Positions 1-16,962 of a stretch of DNA of 64,000 nucleotides are shown here, piece by piece. The translations under genes were made by a program, and so were the position numbers. The notes under the pieces were generated by a model. That model was not told where the DNA came from and did not search any database. It saw nothing but the letters and a program-made list of their open reading frames with translations. Position 1 is the first letter of the stretch; every line of letters begins with the position of its first letter. Source of the stretch: Macrostomum lignano (Eukaryota); contig NIVC01002428.1 in NCBI GenBank assembly GCA_002269645.1, positions 1 through 64,000 of the forward strand, given 5' to 3'.

Positions 1-349
1 CTGTTGTAGCAAAAATTATACTCTGTCACACAGTCATCTCCAAAGTTTGTCTGCAGCGGACGCGATGGCACCGAGTCTCCATTCACAAACACACCAACGC
101 TGCTCACATTTGCATGCTCAAAGTTGAACGGATTAGTGTCCATGCTTTCCATTGAATGCCTTATTGCTTACGATTTGCCATCAATAAAAGTCGTGGTACT
201 CCACTAGGAAACAAATTTTCATGCGTATGGCTAGACGAATCCTCGGGTATAGTAAACGTACCAAGGCTTAGACTTCGGTGCGGATATAATGCATTGTGAC
301 TTTTAAGTCCATGAGCATGTGCACTGATACACTCGCGAGGGTTAAACAA
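1..349 (-). pseudogene. Polinton major capsid protein (F54H12.2/PY-like), C-terminal half, frameshifted
   Basis: Minus strand reads SAHAHGLKSHNALYP...GTFTIP...HENLFPSGVPRLLLM. After removing two extra A's in A-runs near 175 and 147 it continues AIVSNKAFNGSMDTNPFNFEHANVSSVGVFVNGDSVPSRPLQTNF. This matches the Polinton MCP pattern AH..L...A.YP...TFTIP...DNLF.GQLP.R+++..V.N.AFNG....NPFNF.H......+.V.G..+P..PL...F. Confidence 0.85.
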
Positions 350-369
350 ACCGCAATTGCTTGTAAGAC

Positions 370-1482
370 ATGGCAGCTTGCATCAAGACGGAGTCAATTG
401 TGCGCTCCGACTCGAGTTCGATTTTCTACGTTGGAGAGCAGTCTACAACGACTGGTTCGTCCTGCCAGTCTCGATCTATTGCATGGAAACCATCAATCGA
501 GTGTACAAAATGGTACATTATATTGCAATCCAAGGCTCCAATGGAGCTTTTTCATGGAATCACAGAAAGGCCAGAGCTCGATCATCCGTCTTGCAGACAC
601 GACTCTCGCGACGCAGTAAGTGTCCAATTTCATCCAGACAGCTGTGATAAGGAACTCTTCCACTCTCTCCGGTGAGTAGCATATACATACATGTTTAATT
701 TATACAATTAATTATAGGAAACTATAATCATAATTTATATAATGTTTTGCAGTCAAGTCGAAAAAGGTCTATCGACCAAGTTGAACGAGATTCAAGATGT
801 TCGAACCTTGGCACGACTAACAAAACCAGCTCATCAGCATGCGAACGACGTCCTCGAGTTTGTGCCTCAACAATCGTACCTACCAAATGACAGTGCAAGC
901 AACGAGCTTGTATTGTCCAAAAGGCTGCCTCGTCTGGCGCATTAAATTCGCTGTGCGCTCTCTAACGCTCATAGAATCTTCCGACAACATGTTGCAGCAC
1001 CTTGGCATGTTCAAGGGAGTGCTTGCACACGTAACTGCGACCAAGCCAGCAATTAGAAGCAGGAGTCCGTCCCCAACGTCTACCCGTGACCAAGAAGAAG
1101 CAGATGAACAAAGCCGGCAGAATTCAAGCCAGGTGACGCCTGCCAAGTCACCTGCAAAGCGTCGGTCTACCACCACCGTATCGAAGAAGTCGACTCCATC
1201 GAATGCAGCGCCAGCATCTATTGAACCGGTGGCTAAAAAGCAAGTTCGCAAACGCAGCGGTGCAAAACAGCAAAACAATTCTGCCGAAGCTGGTGCAGAT
1301 GGCACAGACTGGGTGGAGGCTCCACCAGTAAAGATCTTGGTGAGTACACCTGCCGGACCCTCTGGAACCCGGGTGGCGTCCAAGGAGACAGCATTTTAAA
1401 GCGTGCTGCTGCTGATGCGGACGCTACTACAGCTAGCGTGTATTCATCGGACGATTCGTACAGCAGCTCTGATGATGAGTAA
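370..1482 (+). CDS. Putative T7 gp2.5-like / NCLDV-type OB-fold ssDNA-binding protein, spliced, with two apparent frameshifts
   Basis: ORF 370..671 is joined in phase to 753.. by an AT-rich 81-nt GTGAGT...TTGCAG intron (672..752). Sequence pattern: DSSSIFY...IAW...YIILQSKAPMELFHGI...SVQFHP..DKELFHSLRQVEKGL...MTVQATSLY...WRIKFAVRSL. A basic low-complexity linker and acidic tail (SSDDSYSSSDDE*) follow. Shifts near 868 and 1385. Confidence 0.5.
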
Positions 1483-1694
1483 CAAATTTTTTGACTAATT
1501 TTATCCAAGTTTTAACTAACTTATTCCACTATATTTATCAAATTTTTGGCTAGGAAAACAGTATTATTTTTAGGGAAAAGCTCAAAATATTTTTTGCTAC
1601 TCTTTGTACGCCAACCAGGTTTTGTTACTTAATATTAGAATTAACAATAGTATAGTCTTGTTAAACTTTTCTTATTATTTACTTTCCGTTTTAG

Positions 1695-2075
1695 CGACTT
1701 GTCCTATTAATAGTTACTGCGAGTCTGAAGCTGCACCCGTTTGAAAAATTTGATTTAAAGCAGGCCAAACAGAAGCTACAGACCAGAAACCGGTTTTGCA
1801 AACTATTCCTAAGCCGACCAACAATGCTAAAGACAATTTATTCAAACGCTAAAATCCTACTTTATCCAGCAGGAAAACTAACTATACGAGTAAATGGCTG
1901 TAAATCAAATTCTCAGATAGTCTCAGTTTTACGATTTATCAACGATACTATTAATTGTGTAGATTTTGATTTGATACAAGGCTTTATGTTCGATACGCTC
2001 GTAGTCGAGCTAGGTGCACACAATGCCGCGTGCACAATGTCAAATCTGCAGAAAAAAGTTCAGCAATCAAGCTGA
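1695..2075 (+). CDS. TBP-like (TATA-binding protein fold, one repeat) ORF
   Basis: Open frame from 1695: LLIVTASLKL..FDLKQAKQKL...RPTMLKTIYSNAKILLYPAGKLTIRVNGCKSNSQIVSVLRFI...FMFDTLVVEL. It is co-linear with the TBP repeat pattern NIVAS.DL...LDL..+A...FPGL+.R...PK..+LIF.SGK+++TGAKS.E+...A+. No start codon upstream of 1824; the frame begins right after a TTTTAG acceptor-like site. Confidence 0.5.
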   Translation, partial: RLVLLIVTASLKLHPFEKFDLKQAKQKLQTRNRFCKLFLSRPTMLKTIYSNAKILLYPAGKLTIRVNGCKSNSQIVSVLRFINDTINCVDFDLIQGFMFDTLVVELGAHNAACTMSNLQKKVQQSS

Positions 2076-5052
2076 GCTGCATGCTCACTCGCATGGTGAT
2101 TGTTTTTCGCCGGAACGATTACTGGCCGGATCACTGCAAAACCTGATCGAAAACTCACCAGATGGGTGGTCCATCACTTTGCGCGAGTCAGCTCATCGTG
2201 GTCGGGTAAATTTTGTCGAATTTACTCCCTCTCTTGAACAACAAGACAGCAGCAGCAGCTCTGGCGAGTTACTTCCTGGCGAGTTGATTGCATCTTTAAG
2301 AGGACTAATATTTAAAATATTGGAAAAAATTGGCTCACCCAGTTTATTAATAAGAGTCTGCTTTCACTTGAAAGTGACACTATTTCGACCGAAAGCAGAC
2401 GACGACGACAGCGATGGCTCGAGCAGAGAAGAGATCATTTCGGTCTATTTTAATACCAACATTGCGAAAATATCATTTGATGAGACGATTGCAAACAGTG
2501 ACATGCTGTTTTCTCCGAGGCCTACAATGACTGGTTCGCACGCGCTACTAATCAGCTGTAATAAAAATTGACAATTTTTAATCTCGAGGTAGTAATTGGC
2601 AATATAGAGCAATCGAGCAGCTAGACTTGATGCTCTGCGTTTATTGCAAAAGCCATGCAAGCACACTGTCAACAAATACGTCCCACGATGGTGTGGGGGC
2701 GGGCGGCAGCGGTGGTGATGGTGGCGGCGGCGGCGGCGGCGGGCGCGGGAGTCCGGTCCAGTCCGGTCCTGTCCGATTAAACAGCGGGCGTTTAAAGTTC
2801 CAGTCTCAATCGGGCGCAAAGCTGGAGCAGTACTGCTTCTAAAGCCGCACAGAGCAAATCAGTACGACTCAATATCGCTACTCAATATTGGCGAGTATAT
2901 TTCATCCTTGTGTGCAAAATGCGAAAAGGAAAGACAGCTATGTGCAATGGATGAGAGAATTTAATTTTGGTCGACAAGCTAATGGACCAGCTCGCCATTC
3001 AAGTAGATCGTACAAAACATTTTGCCGACGCAATCCGAGAGTTAGTCTACGAGTATTTGTGTGGGATCACGAGACCAAGACGAGCACATTATTTTACTCG
3101 CAAAGAAGCAAATATGATGGCGATTGTTATTTTGCAAGCTGCCTGTTTGTGCCGCGGTATGACGATTTTGAATTTGGCCATTATTTACCAATTCGCAATT
3201 TGAACCGGTTATTGAGCAAGCGAGGAAAACAGCGACGCACTGCACGGAAGAAGATTATGGTCGAGCTTGTGCAGCTTGGAATCAGTTCGAGTGTCGAAAT
3301 CTTCGAGATTACACAACAGCCTATTTGTTGCTTGATGTACTGCTGCTATGCGACGTCTTTGAAAATTTTCGTCAGACTGCGCTGCGTGAATATGGTCTCG
3401 ATCCGACTCACTTTTTGGGTGCACCAATGTTTAGCATGGTAGCCTGCCTGTTGCGGGTAGACGAACCAATAAAATTGTTTACCGACGCATCTATGTATGC
3501 CGAAGTTGAGTCCTCCATTCGAGGCGGTTTCAGTTTTGGAACGCGACATGTAACGACGGCCAATAACCCGAGTGTAGCAGAATACAGAAGCGAGTTTGAT
3601 CGACTTGATCCGGACTTTGAAAGCTTGCGAAAAAATGCACCATATGGAACTTATCTAGCATACTTGGACGCTGATTCGCTCTACTCAAGCTGCATGATTC
3701 AACCTTTACCAGTTGGCGATTTTTTATGGCTATCACGCGATGAAATTGGGAACATTCCAACTGATAGTGTGAGTGCAGACTATTTGGAAAATCCAAGTGT
3801 TAAAAGTCGACTATTGGATTGGTTAGACAATTTTTGTAACGACGAACAAGGAGCAATGTTCACTGTGGATCTATATTATCCTCGCTTCTTGCCTGACTCG
3901 ACAGCAGATCTTCCGCTTGCAATTGGTCACGAATTAGTTGGCGAAGACCGACTTAGTGAACAGATGAAACTGGACTGGCTTTGCCTTCAAAGAGAACTTA
4001 ATCCAGATCGTTTTGAAAACGCAACAAGCTATGGTGATGTGAAAGCTTTCAGCAGCTCGACGCGAAAATTGATTGGGTCTGTGCTTCACAAAAAAAGTAT
4101 GTTGTGCATCATCGAGCTCTTCGATTGTATCTAGAATTGGGAATGCGCGTAACGCGTGTTTACCGCGTAATTCGATTTATAGAACGAGCAATTTTGCGAT
4201 CCTATATTGAAAACAATATTGAGCGGCGTAAAGTAGCAAAAACTGAATTCGAACGCGACTTTTTCAAGTTGCTAAACAATGCTCTTTTCGGAAAGTTTCT
4301 GCAACGAGTTCGCGATCGACTCAATTTCCGCATGTGTTCAGAAGCTGAAAAATTGGAGAAATATGTTTCCGAGAAGATTTTCTTGACGTAGTAATTTATA
4401 ATGAAAGTCTGGCAGAAGTTAGCCTCGCTCCGCGTCGTGTTGCGCTAGACAAACCGATTATAATCGGTGCTGCAATCCTAGACATTGCAAAGACTCTTGT
4501 GTACGACTTTTATTACAATCATGTTCAGATTCATCATTCACAAGCAAGTGCTGGGGTACTCGCAGGAGATACTGATAGTCTTATGCTGGCTCTAGTCATG
4601 CGTAAACCGGACGAGACTCCTTACGATGCCTTGTTCAAAGATTTGGCAGAAGAAGGTTTGCTAGACACGAGTAATTGATTCACCATCGCATGCTCTGTAC
4701 TCGACAAAACACAAGGGTCGACTTTTGGCGTGTTTAAAGACGAGTTTAAAGGGTGTGTACCACTGGAACTGGTATTTTTGCGACCAAAAATTACTCCTTC
4801 GTGTATGCCAATGGAACTATAGATCAAGTCTCGCGCTGCAAAGGTGTCTGCAAGACTGTAGCACAAAGTCTAAAGCATCAAGACTATTTGAGAGTTTTGC
4901 ACAAGCGACAACTTGTGTTTTCGCGCATGCAGTCGATTCGCTCTCGAAAACAGAAAGTTTTTTTAATGCAACAAAGAAAACTTGCACTAAGCTTTTTCGA
5001 TACCAAGCGATCTTGGACAAGTTGCATCGATTCGCTGCCATTTGGTCACTAG
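2023..5052 (+). pseudogene. Protein-primed family B DNA polymerase (Polinton type), frameshifted, internally deleted
   Basis: N-terminal C2H2-like CQIC..F..QAELHAH, then GSNWQYRAIEQLDL and GHYLPIRNLNRLLS. Further motifs: EDYGRACAAWNQF..RNLRDY...YLLLDVLLLCDVFENFR; SSIRGG; motif A YLDADSLY; motif B KLLNNALFGK; motif C GDTDSL (~4565); FKDE; PKNYS; SRCKGV; end SLPFGH*. Multiple +/-1 shifts and stops. Confidence 0.92.
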
Positions 5053-5356
5053 CGCTTGACCAATTAACAATATGCTCTGATATATTTTGTTGTACAAAGT
5101 ATAAATAGCATGAAATAGAAGACTGTAAGCCATCATTAATTTTCATTGATCGTAATTTTACAATAAAAAAATGGTGCGTGTATTCATTTAATTTTTTATT
5201 TTAGCACTTTTTGTGTTTAATTATTTGAAAGAGTATAATTTTTATAGTTAGATTCGTATGACTAGGTTGTAGTGAACGTAAATGTGATTGCTAACGTTCA
5301 TGTTTCAAGAAAAAGAAAAAAACTTTTTTAAACTCTCAGTTACAAGAATCGACAAC

Positions 5357-5905
5357 ATGAATGCCGAGCAGCAGCACCAACAGCAACAGCAGCAGTACCA
5401 ACTTTTAGTTGAACGCCTGTACGAATCGGCAACAATTCCGACCCGAAAAACTGTCGGCTCGATTGGTTACGATCTCTGTGCAGGCGTAGATGGTACTATT
5501 CCGGCCTACGAGTCCCGCAGTGTACGAACCGGACTTAAAGTCCGGTTACCGGCTGGTACTTATGGCAGGATTGCGGCACGATCAAGCATGGCTCTGCGCG
5601 GTATCTTTGTTGGCGGCGGCGTAATTGACCCCGACTATACAGGGGAAATCTGTATAGTTTTGTTCAACTACAGCTCGGAGGATTTTGATTACTATGCCGG
5701 GCTAAGTATCGCGCAACTCGTTCTTGAGCAGGCTGTGCTTGCTTCAGTCTATGTCACTGAAGTCGACAACTCTATTCGGATGATTGAGCCGCCGACCAAG
5801 CGGCGCGGTTTTGGCGGCTTTGAATATAGTATTTCTTTTGCTGTAATGATTGACCATTTCGGGTCTTGTATTTATAGCAAGCATTGCATGCTGTTTGTGA
5901 ACTAG
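5357..5905 (+). CDS. dut: Trimeric dUTPase (viral), motif 5 degenerate
   Basis: Motifs GSIGYDL, RSSMA, GVIDPDYTGEI and IAQLV are present; motif 5 reads RRGFGGFEYS instead of RG.GGFGSTG. Likely ATG at 5357, followed by a Gln-rich N-terminus. Confidence 0.9.
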   Translation: MNAEQQHQQQQQQYQLLVERLYESATIPTRKTVGSIGYDLCAGVDGTIPAYESRSVRTGLKVRLPAGTYGRIAARSSMALRGIFVGGGVIDPDYTGEICIVLFNYSSEDFDYYAGLSIAQLVLEQAVLASVYVTEVDNSIRMIEPPTKRRGFGGFEYSISFAVMIDHFGSCIYSKHCMLFVN

Positions 5906-6003
5906 TAAACAAATTTAATTGTTGCGTGCTGATTAAGGCATGTTGCGTGCCAAAGGTGGCATAAGTTTCTAGGGTGGGTTGCATGATTAGGTCTAATTTT
6001 ACG

Positions 6004-6550
6004 CAATCTAGAAATTCTGAACTAGCAGAGGATCAGTCTAAACAGAAACCTAACTAGCAGACAATCAATCTAGAAACTGAAGTAGCAGAGGATCAGTCTA
6101 AACAGAAACCTAACTAGCAGACAATCAATCTAGAAACTGAAGTAGCAGAGGATCAGTCTAAACAGAAACCTAACTAGCAGACAATCAATCTAGAAACTGA
6201 AGTAGCAGAGGATCAGTCTAAACAGAAACCGAACTTAGCAGACAATCAATCTGGAGACTGAATTAGCAGAGAATCAGTCTAAACAGAAACCGAACTTAGC
6301 AGACAATCAATCTGGAGACTGAATTAGCAGAGAATCAATGTAAACTAAACTAACAGAGGATCGGTCTAAACAGAAACCGAACTAACAATCAATCTAGAGA
6401 CTGAACTAGCAGACAATCAATCTAGAGACTGAACTAGCAGAGAATCAATGTAAACTGAACTAACAGAGGATCGGTCTAAACAGAAACCGAACTAACAATC
6501 AATCTAGAGACTGAACTAGCGAACAGTCAATCTAAAAAAACTGAACTAGA
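6004..6550. repeat. Tandem array, 60-bp unit with degenerate sub-units
   Basis: Lines 6061 and 6121 are identical (60-bp period): actgaagtagcagaggatcagtctaaacagaaacctaactagcagacaatcaatctagaa. Confidence 0.95.
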
Positions 6551-7014
6551 GTAGGTGATTATCTTACCTTGTTTAACATAGCGCTCGCCAATTCCTACTG
6601 ACGTGATCGCTTCATTTGACTTAAGATGCAAGTCGAACAAGTAGTGTAGTGTAGACTTGGTTTGAGTTATTGAATATTTTCTGTATCAGTGTGTTCGTAT
6701 ATATAGTATAAAGAAGCATGTTGACGTGGTTGTTGACATAGTATCTGTAAACCATCTGCTCAAGTTGGTGCGAAAATGCTATAGATACTCAAGAATAGAT
6801 CATTTTGCCATATTTCTTCAAAAGGGTGGTAATATTCGCAAGTTTTCAATATTTCAATAGCACTTGAAATGTGTGAATAGCTTTGGAGTAAATTTGTCTT
6901 GAATGGAATCCTTTGAAGTGTGTTTGTGTCACCATTGCTAGAATCGGTTACTTGTATTTTGGACAGGTGGATATGCAATTCGTCTGAATAATCACGTTGC
7001 GTAAAAGATATTTA

Positions 7015-7084
7015 GCGTGCACATGGAATTTTAGACTGCGTGCACATGGAATTTCAGACTGCGTGCACATGAAATTTCGGACTC
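7015..7084. repeat. Three direct copies of a 23-bp unit
   Basis: gcgtgcacatggaattt(t/c)agact x3. Confidence 0.85.
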
Positions 7085-7243
7085 TGCCATTTTTTGGGGC
7101 TGTACTTACTAAGTATTTTGCCATAAGGAAATCGGCTTTGTGTCAAAGAAACATATACTACTATCATACTTTGGGTACTTTGGCACAAGAGTCAAGACCC
7201 CTGTACCACATGCGTTCAGATCAAGGTAAACAACATCAATTAC

Positions 7244-10200
7244 CAGTCCATCCGTGAACTTCAGCACCACCGTCTGCACATCGGCAATCGGATATTGGGG
7301 CATCGAGTAGAAACAGTGCGCGTCGTGTGGATCCATTGTCTCGATCACGACAGTCACGTGAGCAGCATCTGGCGACACGTAGGTTATATAGCTGCCGTTG
7401 CCAGGGAGGAGGCCGCTGCCGTTGCCAACGGGAAGATAGCGCCAGCCAGGCTCGGAGAAGTGCGTGTGGTGCGCTGCAGGATTTGGGAGTCGGTTGCGGT
7501 GCAGTGAGGTTTGGGTGTCGTTTGCTAATCCTAGTATGCATGTAAGTGGCTTAACGATGGTACTTTGCTTCATGTCTGTCGAGTTCAAGATCCTTCAAGA
7601 TGCTCACCTGTCACCCAGATTGGCGGTTTCACCTGATAGTTTCCGGACCAGGGCTCTCTGGCCGACATCAGGCTGTTATCCGAGTAGGGAAAACCACGAT
7701 AGTAGCTGGTGAGCAGGTTCCAGGCGATAGCACTGTAAACACAATTTTTAATAAAATAATTCATGCCAATTCAAAAACAATTTAAAAATAATTCAAATTG
7801 GAAATTCAATGGTGGCACGGGTTAAAGAATACTTAAACTGTTGAGACTGACGTGCAGAGGGGGGTAATTAAACTGGAGAGACTGGGGTGCAGGGGTAATT
7901 AAACTGGAGAGACTGGGGTGCAGGGGTAATTAAACTGGAGAGACTGGGGTGCAGGGGTAATTAAACTGGAGAGACTGGGGTGCAGGGGTAATTAAACTGG
8001 AGAGACTGGGGTGCAGGGGTAATTAAACTGGAGAGACTGGGGTGCAGGGGTAATTAAACTGGAGAGACTGGGGTGCAGGGGTAATTAAACTGGAGAGACT
8101 GGGTGGAGGGACAATTAAACTGGCGGGCAGTGATGCCTCACCCCGACAGGTTTCCCATCACGAATGGTTCGTTAAGAATCCTAGCCCAGCATCCTCCACC
8201 ATTGATGTCGTTGTAAGCACTGAACTCCTCCGAGCAGATCATGGTCTTGTTGAGCAGCTTGGCCTCGGGCGGGCTGTCAGCGCCTGGGTAGTGGGCGCCA
8301 AGAACGTCCACAGCGTCGTACAGCGCCTTGTTTGCCGCGGCCGCCTTCAGGAAGCCGACATCCCACAGGGAGTCCGTGGCCACGATTCTCGTGGATGCGA
8401 AGCCGCTGGCGTCAAGAGCTTTTCGAAGCATCTGAGTTTGTTTTTGTGAAAAAAAATCGTGACTGCTTCCTAGTAAAGAAACGTGTGAAAACGCACAAAA
8501 TGTTCAATCTTACTACTCAATGAAGAGTAGTTGACGCTAAATATAGTTCGAATGGACTACCGGTAAAAAAATGATCTCGTGTAAAAGATTAAATTTAGAA
8601 TCGATTTTAATATATTATGCGGAATTCAAACGGCAGAGTTTTAGCCACAGACTTTCCAAATGCTCAATTGATTTCAAGAATTCCCCAAATTGAAACACAA
8701 AGAAAGAACTTGAGGAACCATGAAGCAAAGAGTCTCTTGTTAAAAATACTCTGAGCAGCCTCACACTACTGACGCTGCCGCCATGAGACGGTTATTTGGC
8801 GCCAAACCAAAGACGCAGACGCCCACAGATTGCATCGCCCGACTTCGATCTACAGAGGAACTGCTGCAGAAGAAGATCGCCCACCTGGAGAAGAAGATCG
8901 AGCAAGAGACGGAAACGGCGAAGCGACTGGCGTCAACCAACAAAAAAGGCGCGCTGCAGGCGCTGACCCGGAAGAAGCGCTACGAGAAGCAGATCCAGCA
9001 GCTGGACGGCACTCTCAGCACGCTGGAGTTTCAGCGCGAAGCCCTGGAGAACGCCAGCATGAACCGGGAGGTCGTGAGCTCGATGAAGACCGCCTCGGAG
9101 GCAATGAAAACTGCCAACAAGGGCGTCGGCGTAGACGACATTAACAAGCTGATGGACGACATTCAGGAGCAGCGCGAGATTGCCGAGGAGCTCACTAACG
9201 CCATCTCGGCTCCATCCAGCGGATCCAGCGAACTGGACGATGACGAGCTGATGGCGGAGCTGCAGCAGCTGGAGCAGCAGGACAAGGTGCCGCAGGCTGC
9301 CGAGCCGTCACTGCAGCTGCCCGAACCCGTGCGCGACCCGCTGCCCGCCGACGGTGCAAAGAAGAAGAAAAAGCAGAAAGACGACGAGGACCTGGAAAAG
9401 CTGCAGGCCTGGCTGGCTTAGAGACCGGCGTGGTGACGCGTTGAAAGTTTGGCTTCTTGCATCCTCTGTTCAGCATTTTGTTCAGGAGTAAATCGACAAT
9501 TTTAGTTTGAATTTTGCGTTCACCTATAAATGACTGCCGTTTTGTCACCATGGTGTTTAAATGCTTTGCCCTTTAACTGGGAAGGGAAGACCGGTTAAAG
9601 AAATTGATTTGTGCGATGTACTTTTTGAGAGGCTTTCACAATGTGCTTTCACTCTGTAATATTGCCATCTCAACACTTATTTTTGAAGATCAAATTTGGC
9701 AGCTGCCAACGATCACGCATGCATGGAGAACTGAAGGCCGCTGGACGCGCAAATCCTGCAAAAGTTACTCTGGAAGCTGCGGTTTTTCTACATTCTCTAA
9801 ATTCCTATAAATTGCCTTGATCTCACCCTCTAGACTGATTGTCGCAACTTTCTCAGTCATTTCTTCAGTTCACCGCAAAGATACTAAATAACTTGTTGTG
9901 CTACTTAGGCACATATACTTAAAGGCAGCCAATAAATGACTTCGATAATTTTAAAAGCCCAAGCTTGCAGGCTTAAACAACTTGCTAATTGTTTCAGTAA
10001 TAATGTACATTAGCCAGTACACTGAAATGTACATGGCAGCTTTAGGCTGGAATTCCGAGAAAGGCAATAAAAACTGGGGTGGGGGCGGGAGGTAGTGTGG
10101 AAAGGCACGGTTGGAGGGTTTAAGCTGTGGGTAAGAGCCAATGAATGAGCCTTGACTTTAAAAATACATTAAAATGCTTCTGTTTAACTTACTACTGAAC

Positions 10201-12828: not shown

Positions 12829-14389
12829 TGGTACTATTTTGCGGTCGGAGTCCAAGATCTCTAGGTGTTTGGAAACAATTAAAGTTACAGATGATGCTGC
12901 GAGCGCAGTTTTAAAAAGGTGAAAGCTTGGCTTCAACTTGTTACTGATCTTGTCTTAGCCAACTAAAATGGCAACGTCCATGCACTCTTCCCAGAAACTG
13001 CGTGTCGAGAAGCAGTGGGGCCAGAAAATTGCTTATCTCTAAGCTATATCTGCTGCCTAATGATATACTGCGACCGTGTTGTTCGATTTGTACACGGCCT
13101 GAAGTTAAAGGCAAGCCATTTGAAAAGCAGCCAATAATGAAAATAAAAAATTTCCAGTCTAAGAACTTATTTATTTGACATCCTTTGTTAATAAAATACC
13201 GCGCATTGCAATTTAACAATATAAATGATACTTTTTTGCTATGCATCTATTTGGAACTAGGAGTTGCAAAACCGGTTTCACCAAAACTATGAACCAGTAA
13301 ACAGGTACTTTTCGCGGTTTCTATTTTCAAAAAATGCCGATTGTCTTACAATGAATAATGATTTTTACTTTCTGAGACTTGAAAATACACTAATTTATAG
13401 AGAGATAAAGTAGTTTTTACAAATTAATAACAAGAATTTCCAAGCAATTTCCGACTAAGGTATGCAAGGGCAGGAATGAATCTGTGCAGTAAGTATAGTC
13501 TGGACACAAGTTTATTTTGTTTGTTTGTTTAACCAGAAACCCACAAAGAAAGAAAGACAAGAAAAGACATGGATGGTGAGGCTGTGGGTTTTAGCGACCG
13601 GGCCCTAGTTCACCCCACCCAATCTTCCGTTGTTTGTTTAACTAGAGAGGCCGAGGGCAGGGTGCATGCAGGTTGGGGACGCTGTCTGTTTGGCCCGTTT
13701 TCCGCGATCAATTATAACGACAAGGCCAACCACACGCCAAGGCCAAGCCCTCTAAAATTCTACTCCATAAGTAGACTTTTCCCTTTAATTAATCTTACCT
13801 GCATCGAGAAAATACTTGTTGTTGGCTTTTGCCGAAAGGGCAAGAACTGTGACAGTATCGGACAAGATATAAATGATAAAAATCGTACACTTGTGAACCC
13901 CTCCCTTGTAGAGGTACCCCTCCAAACCTAGCAGACTACTAAAAGTCGTAAGATAAAAATATGAATACAGTTTAAATATAGCAAGCGTCATACTCTTAAG
14001 TAATACCAGTAATATCACGAAAACAGCGAACGTGTTCATTCCATAGTTCGAAAAAACGGTTTTCAACGGTCTATTTCCAAAAATGGTAATTTTAACCTAA
14101 ATACGACCCAAGTCTCACCCTTTTCTATTCAAAACCCTGAAATTCTGTTCTGAGACCGCAAGTCTGGGAGCAGAATTTTGTGATCACTTACTGTCGCGGG
14201 CACCTCTTCTTAGCGGGCGGATTCGTAGAGCTTGTCTCCTCATTGTGGTTTCCTCCGGAGTTTCTTGGATTCTGAAGCCGGCCGAGTACGAGTATAAGAG
14301 CACTTTAGCGAATGTAGTGAGAAATATATCCGTCGATATTAATGTATTTGGTGTGATCAGTAATCAGAGTCATCCGGGATGCGCCCTAG

Positions 14390-15292
14390 TAACAAACAAC
14401 TACAACAGAATACGCGTTCAGCGTCACAGGGCGCGCCTCAAGGCCAGGTCGCGAATGAACGCTACGCCGCTGGCCGAATCCGGGGCCCCGGCGTCAGCCA
14501 GCAGGCAGTCGACGAAACGCAGAGTGCGGGCCTGCCCCCGCCGGTAGGGTGCCTGCAGCGTTAGCAGCAGCATCTCTTGCACCTGCTGTGGGCAGTACGA
14601 CTCGGGCGCGGATGATGTGGCTTGCCAGCTGGACTCGCCGACGGCGCAACGGGTCGCTTGGGACGGACCAGACCGCCGAGGTAGACGAACTGCTGACAAC
14701 GCGGAAGCTCTGTCGCCTGTCCATCAGCCCCTCGGCACAAAATCGCAGCCTCGATGTCGTCCGGCACGCAGAGCACGACGGTCTTCTGCGTGTTGACCAC
14801 CAGGCCGACACTCGCCGCAACAGCAACTAGCTTGTCCAGTTGTCACTGGGCGCCCTCGACAGTGCGAGATCGTCGGCGTAGCCAAGCACGCTGAGCCGTT
14901 TCTCCGGTTTACGTCGACCCACGCGTTGCCGCAACAGAAAGCCGTGGTTGTAGGTAGGAAAAGCGGTCTGCAGCACCCAGTCAAGCACCAGAACGAACAG
15001 GAACGGCGCAGGCGTATCTCTCTGAAGCACCCCGGAGGATGTCTCAAAGAAGGCGGATAGGCCGTCCGGTGTTGAAACAGTACCTTTCATATCGCGGTAC
15101 ATCACCATGATTGCGGAAATCAGCTGCTCTGGCACGTTGTACGCACGGAGCACCTTATGGGAGCACAGAGCTGATGACCGAGTCGAATGCCTTCTTGAAA
15201 TCTATAAAGATAAGATAACAATCAGGATCGACTGGCGTGTCCGTGCCTCCTCGATGACTCAGCAAAGAGCCAGGATCTGCCCAGGCCCTGAA
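14390..15292 (-). mobile_element. 5'-truncated RTE-clade non-LTR retrotransposon (RT fragment)
   Basis: QILAL..VIEEARTRQSILIVIFIDFKKAFDSV, GVLQRDTPAPFLF, LSVLGYADDLA; ACA-repeat tail near 14390; same family as the 25.9-29.0 kb copy, with internal deletions. Confidence 0.9.
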
Positions 15293-16962
15293 ATGCGCCA
15301 TGTGACATGTCTCACACCTGACTGGCTGACAATGCATTTTGTCGTTGTTTGTGGTGTTTTGTCGTAGGGGTCACGTAATGCGTGATCTTGTTCTTCTAGT
15401 GCTTCATCTGCAGTAACAAAGCTTTCTCCATCTTCCAAAAGCTCGTGACTTATTATTCTTCTACCATGTTGAATGCGTGCGTCTATTTGCAGCCAAAGGG
15501 ACGCCAGTAGCACTGAAAATGACTAAATTAAGTGCTCGGATAAATGGCGGCCTCTCCGACTGAACCGCGCAAGACAGAGCAAAGAGCCAGCCAATCAAAA
15601 CCCGGCCCGGGGCAGGGCGCAGCCCTTGTGCCACAACAGGGCTGGCCGCAGTCAACCAGCGCAGAGCACGGAGCAGGGCGCACGTCAGGGGATGGGCAAG
15701 CCAAAGCCCTGCAGCCAACCAGGCCGGCCGCTGGGCCTAACGCCTAACCCGCCCCCACCCCTTAGCCAGCCTAAAAGTGCACCGCGCCTTTGACAAACCG
15801 AAAAGGGAACATGCACTGCACACTTATAAACTTATTTTTTAATTTGTGGGATAGACGAAATATTTACTTTGTGAGTTTTAGTCCGTAATAATGCCAAGCT
15901 CTCAATCCGGTGTACATCTAGCCAGAGATACATTGAGTCAATTCACTTCTGTATGAGCTAACTAAGTTGTTTTTTAATAGATTCCTGAGTCGTAAATCGT
16001 ATTCGTATACGCTCGTATTAGCTTAGAATTTTAATGAAGACAAGGGAAGTTACGAAAATCGAAACACACGGAACGGGACGCTTTAACCGACTTAATTACG
16101 ATTACACTGGTCGGATCTGTAGTACAATGATAGATCAAAGGCTAGATGTACAAAGATGTAAGCGGACTAAATGATTTTATTTGGTGTGTACTGCCCACTG
16201 CTAGTCTATAAATCTGCATGGAAAATACACTCAGCAACATGTTAAAGTTTTCACCCCAGAACCAGTGGTCAACTTTCCTCAGTTATCAGACCCAAGTGAC
16301 GCAATTCACACCACGTCCGCGGGGCTCGTATGGGCTGACTTCGCAATCAAGCTGATATGAAGAAAAATAAGCTATTATTATTGTTTTGTCAATGATAATA
16401 TTAAGAATTAATTAATTTATTCATTTTAGCTTCGGGGCTTCTTGGCTTCGGGGTGGAATCTTTAGCATGTTGCTGAGCGTATGTGTAATAAACATGTTAA
16501 GGATGCATCGCTGTGGCCGCGTGCAATGGAACTCTCCTGACTCCTTAATCCTTACAAGATGGTGCTAACGATTCTGGCTCTTAGATCGCTGTTCCGTGCT
16601 ATACAACTAAAAGTAATGTTAAAGATCTCGAGAGACCTACACTCGTAGTTGAATCTGTTGAATAAGAGAGCACTCTGAGAAAAACTCCCAGCTTCTAGTC
16701 CTAACTCTGACTCTTCATGCATTACTAGCTAAGAGCACTCTTGACTCCTAGTCCAATGATTTGTGCACTCCCCAGCTCTTAATTTTATAGCACGGGCCCC
16801 CTGATACTCCCTGTGTTCAGAACTCTTCGCTCGTTACTGTATTATACTCTACCTGTTATAATAAAATTGGCCTATGCACTTTGCTAGCTAGAATTTTGCC
16901 AGCTTCTTCTGACCGAAATTATAACTTTGTTAAATCTGCTCAATATTAACTCAATTTAACTT

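What the first reader, a model, noticed from the sequence alone, without database searches (positions are those of the whole stretch)
1..6550. Polinton-like endogenous virus with an expanded, NCLDV-like replication/transcription module (SSB + TBP-like + pPolB + dUTPase)
Seen: a Polinton MCP remnant on (-), then a co-oriented (+) block of four genes. Established: canonical Polintons encode pPolB, integrase, ATPase, protease and capsids, whereas gp2.5-like SSBs, TBP-like factors and dUTPases are typical of larger DNA viruses. Inference: this may be an undescribed lineage of animal polinton-like viruses with its own DNA-binding, promoter-recognition and nucleotide-sanitising genes, at least one of them spliced. 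The SSB and TBP assignments are by-eye and moderate confidence.
Basis: partly seen in the sequence, partly recalled or inferred. Interest (0 to 1): 0.85.

Follow-up and report, generated by a model that had tools for sequence, protein, structure and literature searches.

The report
Polinton with spliced SSB–TBP regulator
This is a broken, partly flipped copy of a virus-like transposon family in a flatworm; the family carries a predicted giant-virus-type single-strand DNA-binding protein and its own TATA-binding protein, which splicing likely joins into one factor that would switch on its particle-building genes through a private promoter word.

Summary
Confirmed, corrected and extended. Window 1-7162 is a rearranged, broken copy of a multi-copy Polinton/adintovirus family: at least 40 loci, AGT-starting inverted repeats, 6-bp target duplications. 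It sits in a galactocerebrosidase intron; its gene block is inverted and shortened relative to sister copies. The SSB call holds (model matches ASFV CP312R at Z 12.3, T7 gp2.5 at 6.7), its intron is spliced in 3 of 4 public runs, and TBP passes the Pfam cut-off. New here: the TBP frame has no start codon for its first strand. In six divergent subfamilies an in-frame splice donor inside the SSB tail faces an in-frame acceptor before TBP, predicting an SSB-TBP fusion; 0 of 4 runs showed that joint. Virion genes sit behind TATAAG[C/T]. A second Polinton lineage in this genome pairs a PC4-like gene and another TBP with [C/T]TTAAGAA. This resembles the herpesvirus TBP/TATT late switch. The scan already noted Polinton TBP with a private word on other DNA, and adintovirus figure labels include SSDBP, dUTPase and TBP; my searches found no record of the fusion or the NCLDV-type SSB.

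The parts
1..357 (-). Internal piece of the major capsid protein gene, broken; it continues beyond the contig start in allelic contigs
   Evidence: 96% DNA identity to the family MCP region, 44/48 aa identical. The name MCP rests on gene position and recall: Pfam and PDB sequence searches gave no capsid hit
354..5822 (+). Internal block, inverted relative to the TIR and MCP; its ends are the two rearrangement junctions
   Evidence: BLASTN against 21 other regions, junction sequences, junction seen as a loose end in run X6
370..671 (+). SSB exon 1 (NCLDV/T7 gp2.5-type OB fold)
   Evidence: Model of database protein P0008 matches ASFV CP312R, Z 12.3; exon conserved in 6 subfamilies
672..752 (+). 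SSB intron 1, GT-AG, phase 2
   Evidence: Same codon position in 6 of 6 subfamilies; joint in contigs of 3 of 4 runs laid on a sister copy
753..1482 (+). SSB exon 2: rest of the OB fold, basic low-complexity linker, acidic end; broken in this copy near 874 and 1393
   Evidence: 29 of 73 matches in the genome cover the whole 127-aa core without a stop at 98-100% identity
1340..1694 (+). Predicted alternative intron 2 (phase-0 GTRAGY donor inside the SSB tail, polypyrimidine + AG acceptor); its removal would fuse SSB to TBP
   Evidence: Donor and acceptor in 6 of 6 subfamilies and 20 of 20 close copies checked; joint not seen in 4 runs
1695..1979 (+). TBP-like domain, first half only in this copy
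   Evidence: Sister frame of 185 aa: Pfam PF00352 E 2e-7, above cut-off; profile hits 35 PDB TBP sequences; 26 of 90 genome matches are open 185-aa frames
2023..5052 (+). [quoted passage not shown]
   Evidence: in a relative the N-terminal and catalytic parts are one frame with PF03175 + Endonuclease_7
5357..5822 (+). dUTPase, C-terminal end cut by the inversion
   Evidence: PF00692 E 1.2e-28, junction
5820..6006 (-). SSB promoter with canonical TATA box (about 5871-5876), separated from its gene by the inversion
6017..6553 (.). Subterminal tandem repeats, about 60-nt unit
   Evidence: part of the element by alignment
7055..7162 (-). Terminal inverted repeat (about 108 bp, starts AGTAGT)
7163..7168 (.). 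6-bp target-site duplication; its partner lies at the other element end in allelic contigs C4827 and C300

Best explanation
The window holds a broken, internally inverted copy of a Polinton (adintovirus-like) family whose sister copies carry a spliced gene for a predicted giant-virus-type SSB and a TBP-like domain, likely joined by a second, alternative splice into an SSB-TBP fusion that would switch on the virion genes through the word TATAAG[C/T]. Proposed cycle: (1) Host TBP/Pol II reads a canonical TATA box and transcribes the SSB unit early (TATA box and intron 1 shown; timing inferred). (2) The singly spliced mRNA gives an SSB with an acidic tail that coats displaced strands during protein-primed replication, with dUTPase and, in relatives, dNK supplying nucleotides (fold predicted by model; role inferred from ASFV CP312R and T7 gp2.5). 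(3) Use of a second, phase-0 donor in the SSB tail gives SSB-linker-TBP (inferred from splice-site conservation). (4) The TBP domain, which keeps two of four intercalating Phe plus the adjacent Pro, binds TATAAG[C/T] about 45-160 nt upstream of the PLA2, penton, pX, capsid and neighbouring genes and recruits host Pol II (word shown; binding inferred). (5) Tethering to the SSB would confine late transcription to replicating genomes (most speculative step). The window copy itself is likely inert: its SSB has lost its promoter and its late block is largely deleted.
For: Polinton identity: TIRs, 6-bp duplications, rve+chromo integrase, pPolB with EndoVII, protease-like, PLA2, pX. SSB: VIA Z 12.3 over 185 residues to ASFV CP312R, then T7 gp2.5 6.7 and Enc34 SSB 6.5; Foldseek 7yeq E 1.9e-5; 106 BFVD hits at E<=1e-3, top rows all NCLDV; Atlas nearest clusters Nucleocytoviricota at 0.95. 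TBP. Purifying selection: dN/dS 0.14-0.17 (TBP) and 0.14-0.20 (SSB) in 6 of the 7 lineage-A pairs that gave a ratio; one pair with a broken copy gave 0.47 and 3 pairs were saturated. Fusion: a Leu-Val-Ser triplet is the only invariant stretch of the otherwise unalignable tail in 6 subfamilies. It is always written GT[AG]AG[CT] in phase 0 and is the only phase-0 GTRAG in each tail. The TBP frame starts in phase 0 behind a pyrimidine tract and AG in all 6; 4 of 6 tails have no in-frame Met before the donor. The stand-alone lineage-B TBP begins with a Pro/Ala-rich Leu-Arg stretch whose Arg aligns with the first residue after the acceptor. Word: 6 of 7 TATAAG[C/T] sites lie 30-165 nt before a gene start in each of two elements (binomial P 2e-6 and 5e-6); 7+/0- and 7+/2- strand counts. 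Lineage B has 7 and 8 [C/T]TTAAGAA sites (0 of 200 shuffles reach that) and 0-1 of the A word. PMC12529657 (passages) says the Pro beside the Phe favours T at position 1: lineage A keeps it and its word starts with T, lineage B has Ser/Thr and mostly starts with C.
Against: The second joint was not seen in any of 4 runs, while intron 1 was seen in 3; one run has a contig that runs unspliced across the acceptor (contigs drop rare forms, and the runs are only guessed to be RNA). No longer, fused TBP protein was found in the database (weak search). The first TBP repeat is heavily remodelled: Asn, one Phe and Thr are lost, the second Phe is Tyr, whereas all four Phe are needed in KSHV ORF24. Both words contain TAAG, the baculovirus late element (PMC4893493). 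Word enrichment in the AT-rich C84 copy is modest by shuffle alone (9 of 200). The words sit at orthologous places, so elements are not independent tests; Pro/first-base covariation rests on two lineages. No binding, TSS or timing data.
Confidence: 0.6

Rival explanations
1. The TBP domain is a separate protein: the acceptor receives the flatworm spliced leader, whose terminal AUG supplies the start codon, so SSB and TBP are an operon and not a fusion.
For: The M. lignano leader ends in ATG and 30% of genes are trans-spliced (PMC8629364, passages); flatworm leader ATG can serve as start codon (PMC12582326, passage); the acceptor is in phase 0; the SSB stop-to-acceptor gap is 138 to about 490 nt, within that paper's 1-kb operon threshold.
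Against: It leaves unexplained the invariant phase-0 donor in the SSB tail and the match of the residues before it to the lineage-B TBP N-terminus; no leader loose end at the acceptor in 4 runs. The two routes could coexist.
Confidence: 0.17
2. The TAAG-containing words are read by the polymerase of a helper virus (baculovirus/nudivirus type), as virophage promoters copy those of their giant virus; the element's TBP does something else, such as binding the origin or competing with host TBP.
For: Both words contain TAAG; baculovirus polymerase recognises TAAG; virophage promoter sharing appears in the search listing (mechanism recalled).
Against: The flanks differ by lineage exactly as the TBPs do, within one host; at the known genes the word-to-ATG distances are about 35 nt or more, as a TATA-like element needs; no such helper virus was looked for or found.
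Confidence: 0.13
3. The TBP domain no longer binds DNA specifically and acts as a protein scaffold or decoy; the word is read by host TBP or a host paralogue.
For: First repeat remodelled; TATAAG differs from a canonical box by one base; the host has a TRF-like paralogue.
Against: Second-repeat Phe-Pro, Arg, Phe and the stirrup Glu are invariant in lineage A, and new aromatic residues are conserved on the DNA face; lineage B's word is far from canonical.
Confidence: 0.1

Closest known systems
Polintons/Mavericks, adintoviruses (Starrett et al. 2021, PMC8502044; sections 3.1, 3.2, 3.4 and the text layer of Supplementary Fig S2 read; figures not seen)
   Same: About 19.6 kb, TIRs, 6-bp duplications, pPolB, rve integrase, ATPase, protease, capsid-position genes, PLA2 (their Alpha virion module marker); dUTPase and SSDBP labels occur on their Alpha maps and TBP in the Fig 5 legend.
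   Different: In the parts I read they describe no NCLDV-type SSB, spliced SSB-TBP unit, dNK or private late word. Which element bears their TBP and which fold their SSDBP has I could not see. Alpha or Beta PolB class was not tested.
Beta/gamma-herpesvirus viral TBP (EBV BcRF1, KSHV ORF24, HCMV UL87) and TATT late promoters (PMC4893493 and PMC12529657, passages)
   Same: A virus-encoded TBP-like domain, a non-canonical TATA word before structural genes, canonical TATA before early genes, no viral RNA polymerase.
   Different: No homology claimed. Herpes vTBP is part of a large protein in a six-member complex, keeps four Phe and lacks the TFIIB Glu; here the domain is 185 aa, keeps two Phe and the stirrup Glu, and is predicted fused to an SSB in a 20-kb element.
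NCLDV/T7 gp2.5-like SSBs (ASFV CP312R, PDB 8hw5/7yeq; iridovirus P31K; gamadvirus PEV_26 in PMC11253617, passage)
   Same: Same extended OB fold with a long low-complexity tail.
   Different: 8-16% identity; here the gene is intron-split and in an integrating Polinton of an animal; no Pfam hit.
Maverick mini-TBP families noted earlier by this scan (e.g. e1-8073936, e1-8073056; unchecked AI notes)
   Same: Polinton-encoded TBP with a shared TATA-like word before virion genes.
   Different: Those are described as shortened stand-alone TBPs of about 145-155 aa; this one is a full two-repeat domain without its own start. Sequence look-ups found no overlap.

Membership tests
Polinton/Maverick (adintovirus) | Terminal inverted repeats starting AG/AGT | tested here: met
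   108-bp TIR, 95% identical arms, starts AGTAGT
Polinton/Maverick (adintovirus) | 6-bp target-site duplication | tested here: met
   Matching 6-mers at both ends in C593, C2542, C3539 and the window allele (C4827, C300); not matching in C84, whose flanks pair with those of C1136 and C2373
Polinton/Maverick (adintovirus) | Protein-primed PolB | tested here: met
   PF03175 above cut-off
Polinton/Maverick (adintovirus) | rve integrase | tested here: met
   PF00665 + chromo in a sister copy; deleted from the window allele
Polinton/Maverick (adintovirus) | Packaging ATPase and adenain-type protease | tested here: inconclusive
   Pox_A32 E 0.0025 and Peptidase_C5 E 0.038, both below cut-off; positions fit
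Polinton/Maverick (adintovirus) | Double jelly-roll major and single jelly-roll minor capsid proteins | tested here: inconclusive
   Conserved 440-aa frame before the protease, but no Pfam or PDB sequence hit; not folded
Alpha versus Beta adintovirus | PolB class by phylogeny | not tested
   No reference sequences were held; PLA2 points to the Alpha virion module
TATA-binding protein (PF00352) | Two TBP repeats by profile | tested here: met
   31.2 bits against cut-off 22.9, 2 stretches; full-length alignment to PDB TBPs; 3 of 5 lineage-A subfamilies scanned singly pass the cut-off
TATA-binding protein (PF00352) | Four intercalating Phe and two central Asn | tested here: not met
   Two Phe kept, one Tyr, one lost; both Asn replaced. 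A divergent TBP-like domain, not a canonical TBP
TATA-binding protein (PF00352) | Saddle fold and DNA bending | tested here: inconclusive
   Single-sequence model too poor (pLDDT 47); bending not testable
T7 gp2.5-like / NCLDV SSB | Extended OB fold closest to gp2.5-family SSBs | tested here: met
T7 gp2.5-like / NCLDV SSB | Binds single-stranded DNA | not testable with these tools
   Needs a binding assay
Herpesvirus vTBP/vPIC system | ORF24/BcRF1 homology with its five partner activators and TATT | not tested
   No homology search against herpes vPIC proteins was run; the word here is TATAAG[C/T], not TATT, so only a working analogy is claimed
Nucleocytoviricota | NCLDV core (RNA polymerase, D5 primase-helicase, VLTF3, RNA-primed PolB) | tested here: not met
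   None among the 19 ORFs of the 19.6-kb copy scanned; only the SSB fold is NCLDV-like

The most novel reading that the evidence does not exclude
A 20-kb integrating animal virus runs its own early-to-late switch with one alternatively spliced gene: the unfused form is a giant-virus-type SSB, the fused form tethers a re-specified TBP to replicating DNA and fires a private TATA word. Two Polinton lineages in one worm genome have evolved orthogonal TBP/word pairs, each beside a different single-strand-binding protein (OB-fold SSB or PC4).
Probability: 0.4. Interest if true: 0.87.

Novelty: new variant of a known kind. Interest (0 to 1): 0.72.

Why it matters
How Polintons, which have no RNA polymerase, express capsid genes, and how DNA viruses tie late transcription to replication, are open questions; PMC4893493 (passage) names the second as unresolved for herpesviruses. 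This family offers a minimal, testable answer in a laboratory flatworm: one predicted splice, one 7-nt word, one domain. The two lineages give a natural specificity control for how TBP sequence sets the word it reads. An NCLDV-type SSB in a Polinton also adds a replication gene to the links between Polintons and giant viruses. More than 100 TBP-like frames in this genome are probably viral and could be miscounted as host TBP expansions.

Tried and rejected
Chimeric assembly or unrelated insertions: rejected. Opposite-strand MCP as a family trait: rejected, it is an inversion in this allele. The 28-31% pPolB identities came from an out-of-frame query and were dropped; one search shows close homology. 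Relatives outside the host: TBP single-sequence search 0 of 35 candidates; representatives search 5 hits, four unnamed at 40-43% and one 7048-aa tick protein with 63 short stretches that I set aside as probably repeat-driven without inspecting it; SSB profile 6 hits, all named M. lignano, longer proteins only; IMG/VR scans empty for A-TBP, SSB, B-TBP and host TBP; metagenome scan with SSB 0 of 80 pattern hits confirmed. These pattern searches are insensitive, so host range is open. SSB by sequence: no Pfam, NCBIfam or PDB hit. TBP single-sequence fold unusable. TBP tree: lineages A and B each form a clade on long branches, with no viral or archaeal outgroups, so origin and monophyly are undecided. 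Complex of host TFIIB C-terminal exon with the TBP domain: no verdict, score 0.00, no evidence either way. No listed run is on record as RNA; missing cover of the TBP part in one run is not used. Literature: 10 searches; no TBP/SSB passages in 10.1101/2024.03.18.585575, 10.64898/2026.06.19.733378 or, for TATA and dUTP, PMC10748475; PMC3519460 not held, its content is taken from the citation in PMC11253617. Subscription papers, Repbase, figures, slide files and the cut part of the Starrett supplement were not seen and may name these genes. The element was never tested for present-day mobility.
Full report
VERDICT. The window copy is a broken, internally inverted allele. The interest lies in the family: a predicted second splice that joins the SSB to the TBP domain, and a private TATA-like word before the virion genes. 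The fusion and the binding are inferred, not shown.

WHERE IT IS. The window is the start of contig C2428 of a 764-Mb animal genome. The only database relatives of the SSB (98% to 36% identical) are named Macrostomum lignano, so the host is that flatworm or close to it. The allele lies in an intron of the host galactocerebrosidase gene: exons at 8138-8500 and 7109-7591 and a C-terminal exon beyond the far end in allelic contig C4827.

THE FAMILY. A DNA search with 300-2600 gave 107 matches at 40 loci (40 of 78 candidates scored). A long natural copy (C84, 19.6 kb) has a 108-bp TIR starting AGTAGT. Its order, all on one strand, is: unknown ORF, SSB, TBP, pPolB, dUTPase, PLA2, ATPase, penton-position gene, pX, two ORFs, integrase, ORF, capsid-position gene, protease; several of these frames are broken in that copy too. 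Of 21 other regions aligned to it, 13 lack the pPolB core, 2 are 99.7% alike, 4 are the window allele and 2 are a subfamily about 80% alike. Six-bp duplications match at both ends in C593, C2542, C3539 and the window allele; in C84 they do not, but pair with flanks of C1136 and C2373. The pPolB-less copies are 99.5-100% identical over the SSB-TBP block at different insertion sites, so they likely spread recently using a polymerase from elsewhere; the window allele is about 96% identical to them.

THE WINDOW ALLELE. Block 354-5822 is inverted, about 3.6 kb and 6 kb are lost at its sides, and the element ends at 7162. The inversion cuts the SSB from its TATA box, now at about 5871-5876 on the minus strand. 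Further breaks: about 101 nt in SSB exon 2, about 464 nt removing the second TBP repeat, 1.15 kb and several frameshifts in pPolB. The same allele is in C4827 and twice in C300, and run X6 has a contig crossing the junction.

SSB. Pfam, NCBIfam and PDB sequence searches are blank. The spliced 375-aa database protein P0008, folded with an 8-row alignment (mean pLDDT 60, most core blocks 70-95), matches ASFV CP312R at Z 12.3 over 185 residues (rmsd 4.1), then T7 gp2.5 (6.7) and Enc34 SSB (6.5); 4 of 48,161 chains reach Z 5. Foldseek agrees, as does the Atlas. PMC11253617 (passage) states that T7-like SSBs occur in four NCLDV families and in gamadviruses. Intron 1 is GT-AG at the same codon in 6 of 6 subfamilies, and its joint is in contigs of 3 of 4 runs from separate studies (the runs are guessed to be RNA). 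A canonical TATA box precedes the gene in 5 of 5 subfamilies examined.

TBP. The 185-aa sister frame passes the Pfam cut-off and the family profile hits 35 PDB TBP sequences. It is an open frame at 26 of 90 genome matches, and subfamilies run down to 32-46% identity. dN/dS is 0.14-0.17 in three pairs, 0.47 in one pair with a broken copy, and one pair was saturated. Against host TBP the second repeat keeps Phe-Pro, Arg, Phe and a stirrup Glu; the first repeat has Tyr for one Phe and has lost the other Phe, the Asn and the Thr. Five more divergent subfamilies keep SSB-TBP-pPolB order; several add a deoxynucleoside kinase after TBP, in one subfamily in the same open frame.

THE PREDICTED FUSION. 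The TBP frame starts in phase 0 straight behind a pyrimidine tract and AG in all 6 subfamilies, with no start codon for its first strand. In the SSB tail, which otherwise barely aligns, only Leu-Val-Ser is invariant. Its codons always read GT[AG]AG[CT] in phase 0, and it is the only phase-0 GTRAG in each of the 6 tails. The predicted intron is 270-619 nt, and 4 of 6 tails have no Met before the donor. Both sites are present in 20 of 20 close copies. The stand-alone TBP of lineage B starts with a similar Pro-rich stretch, and its Arg aligns with the first residue after the acceptor. Against this: the joint was in 0 of 4 runs, one contig runs unspliced across the acceptor, and no longer TBP protein was found. 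The spliced leader, which ends in ATG (PMC8629364 and PMC12582326, passages), is the main rival; no leader loose end was seen.

THE PRIVATE WORD. Earlier notes of this scan on other genomes prompted the search. TATAAG[C/T] occurs 7 times on the coding strand of C84 (0 on the other) and 7 times in C1680 (2 on the other); 9 and 0 of 200 shuffles reach these counts, 5 of 200 for the 5 sites in C362. In C84 and C1680, 6 of 7 sites lie 30-165 nt before a gene start (P 2e-6, 5e-6): PLA2, penton, pX, the pre-capsid ORF, capsid, plus one more ORF or dUTPase. The window has no copy of the word, since that block is deleted.

SECOND LINEAGE. The TBP family search returned 150 scored matches of 330 candidates. 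Of 14 regions sampled, 11 are another Polinton lineage, 2 are host TBP and a TRF-like gene, and 1 is a lone fragment. Lineage B has a PC4-like first gene (PF02229) behind a canonical TATA, a stand-alone TBP, and [C/T]TTAAGAA before integrase, penton, capsid, ATPase, pX and TBP itself (7 and 8 sites, 0 of 200 shuffles). Each lineage nearly lacks the other's word. PMC12529657 (passages) says the Pro beside the intercalating Phe favours T at the first position. Lineage A keeps it and its word starts with T; lineage B has Ser/Thr and mostly starts with C. With two lineages this is suggestive only. The tree separates A and B on long branches and cannot settle their origin.

MECHANISM. Shown: Polinton anatomy, TBP homology, intron 1, the words. 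Predicted by model: SSB fold. Inferred: early expression by host TBP, the second splice, binding of the word, recruitment of Pol II, coupling to replication. It works like the beta/gamma-herpesvirus TBP/TATT switch (PMC4893493, passages); no membership of that system is claimed. A helper-virus polymerase reading TAAG remains possible.

NOVELTY. Starrett et al. label dUTPase and SSDBP on Alpha adintovirus maps and TBP in a MELD-virus figure (figures not seen). The scan has 9 notes on Polinton TBP in other genomes, 8 shown, and none on this SSB or a fusion. Ten paper searches found no account of either; subscription papers and Repbase were not searched. That Polinton ends start with AG/AGT and make 6-bp duplications, and the names penton, pX and MCP for frames without a full profile hit, are partly recalled. 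Class: new variant of a known kind. Interest 0.72.

Noticed in passing
G000:C114:460183-476982 and 10 other sampled loci (L136-L174): Second Polinton lineage, about 16.8 kb, with PC4-like gene, stand-alone TBP, divergently placed pPolB, AGT TIRs, 6-bp duplications and the word [C/T]TTAAGAA; it probably accounts for most of the 100+ TBP-like frames in the genome.
   Followed up: partly
L187:2440-3846 (-); also C362 and C1431: TBP domain and deoxynucleoside kinase in one open frame of 469-473 aa; a real fusion or a lost stop codon.
   Followed up: partly
window 8744-9421 (+): Intronless Snf7/CHMP4-like ORF (Pfam E 6.6e-42) on the strand opposite the galactocerebrosidase exons around it; nested host gene or retrocopy.
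   Followed up: no
window 7109-7591 and 8138-8500 (-), and L014:495-839 (-): Host galactocerebrosidase (GH59) exons on both sides of the insertion.
   Followed up: partly
G000:C272:383965-399965: Fold-back copy: the left arm with the SSB gene is duplicated in inverted form (99.9% over 1740 bp) in place of the right arm, as template switching in protein-primed replication might give.
   Followed up: no
G000:C84, C1136, C2373: Flanking 6-mers pair across contigs instead of within one: assembly swap or recombination between near-identical copies.
   Followed up: no
L083:2925-2967: Runs X1 and X4 have contigs in which the SSB promoter segment is flanked by other sequence not found in any fetched locus: the same promoter may front another gene or variant.
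   Followed up: partly
C84 and C1680 integrase ends; lineage B integrase ends: The late word overlaps the last codons of the upstream gene, so these proteins end in fixed residues.
   Followed up: no
window 14100-15370: Reverse-transcriptase-like (LINE) remnants by eye in the ORF list; not scanned.
   Followed up: no
P0001 (NCBI KAM7312507.1, Ixodes scapularis): 7048-aa protein with 63 short stretches scoring against the TBP-like query; probably repeat-driven, not inspected.
   Followed up: no
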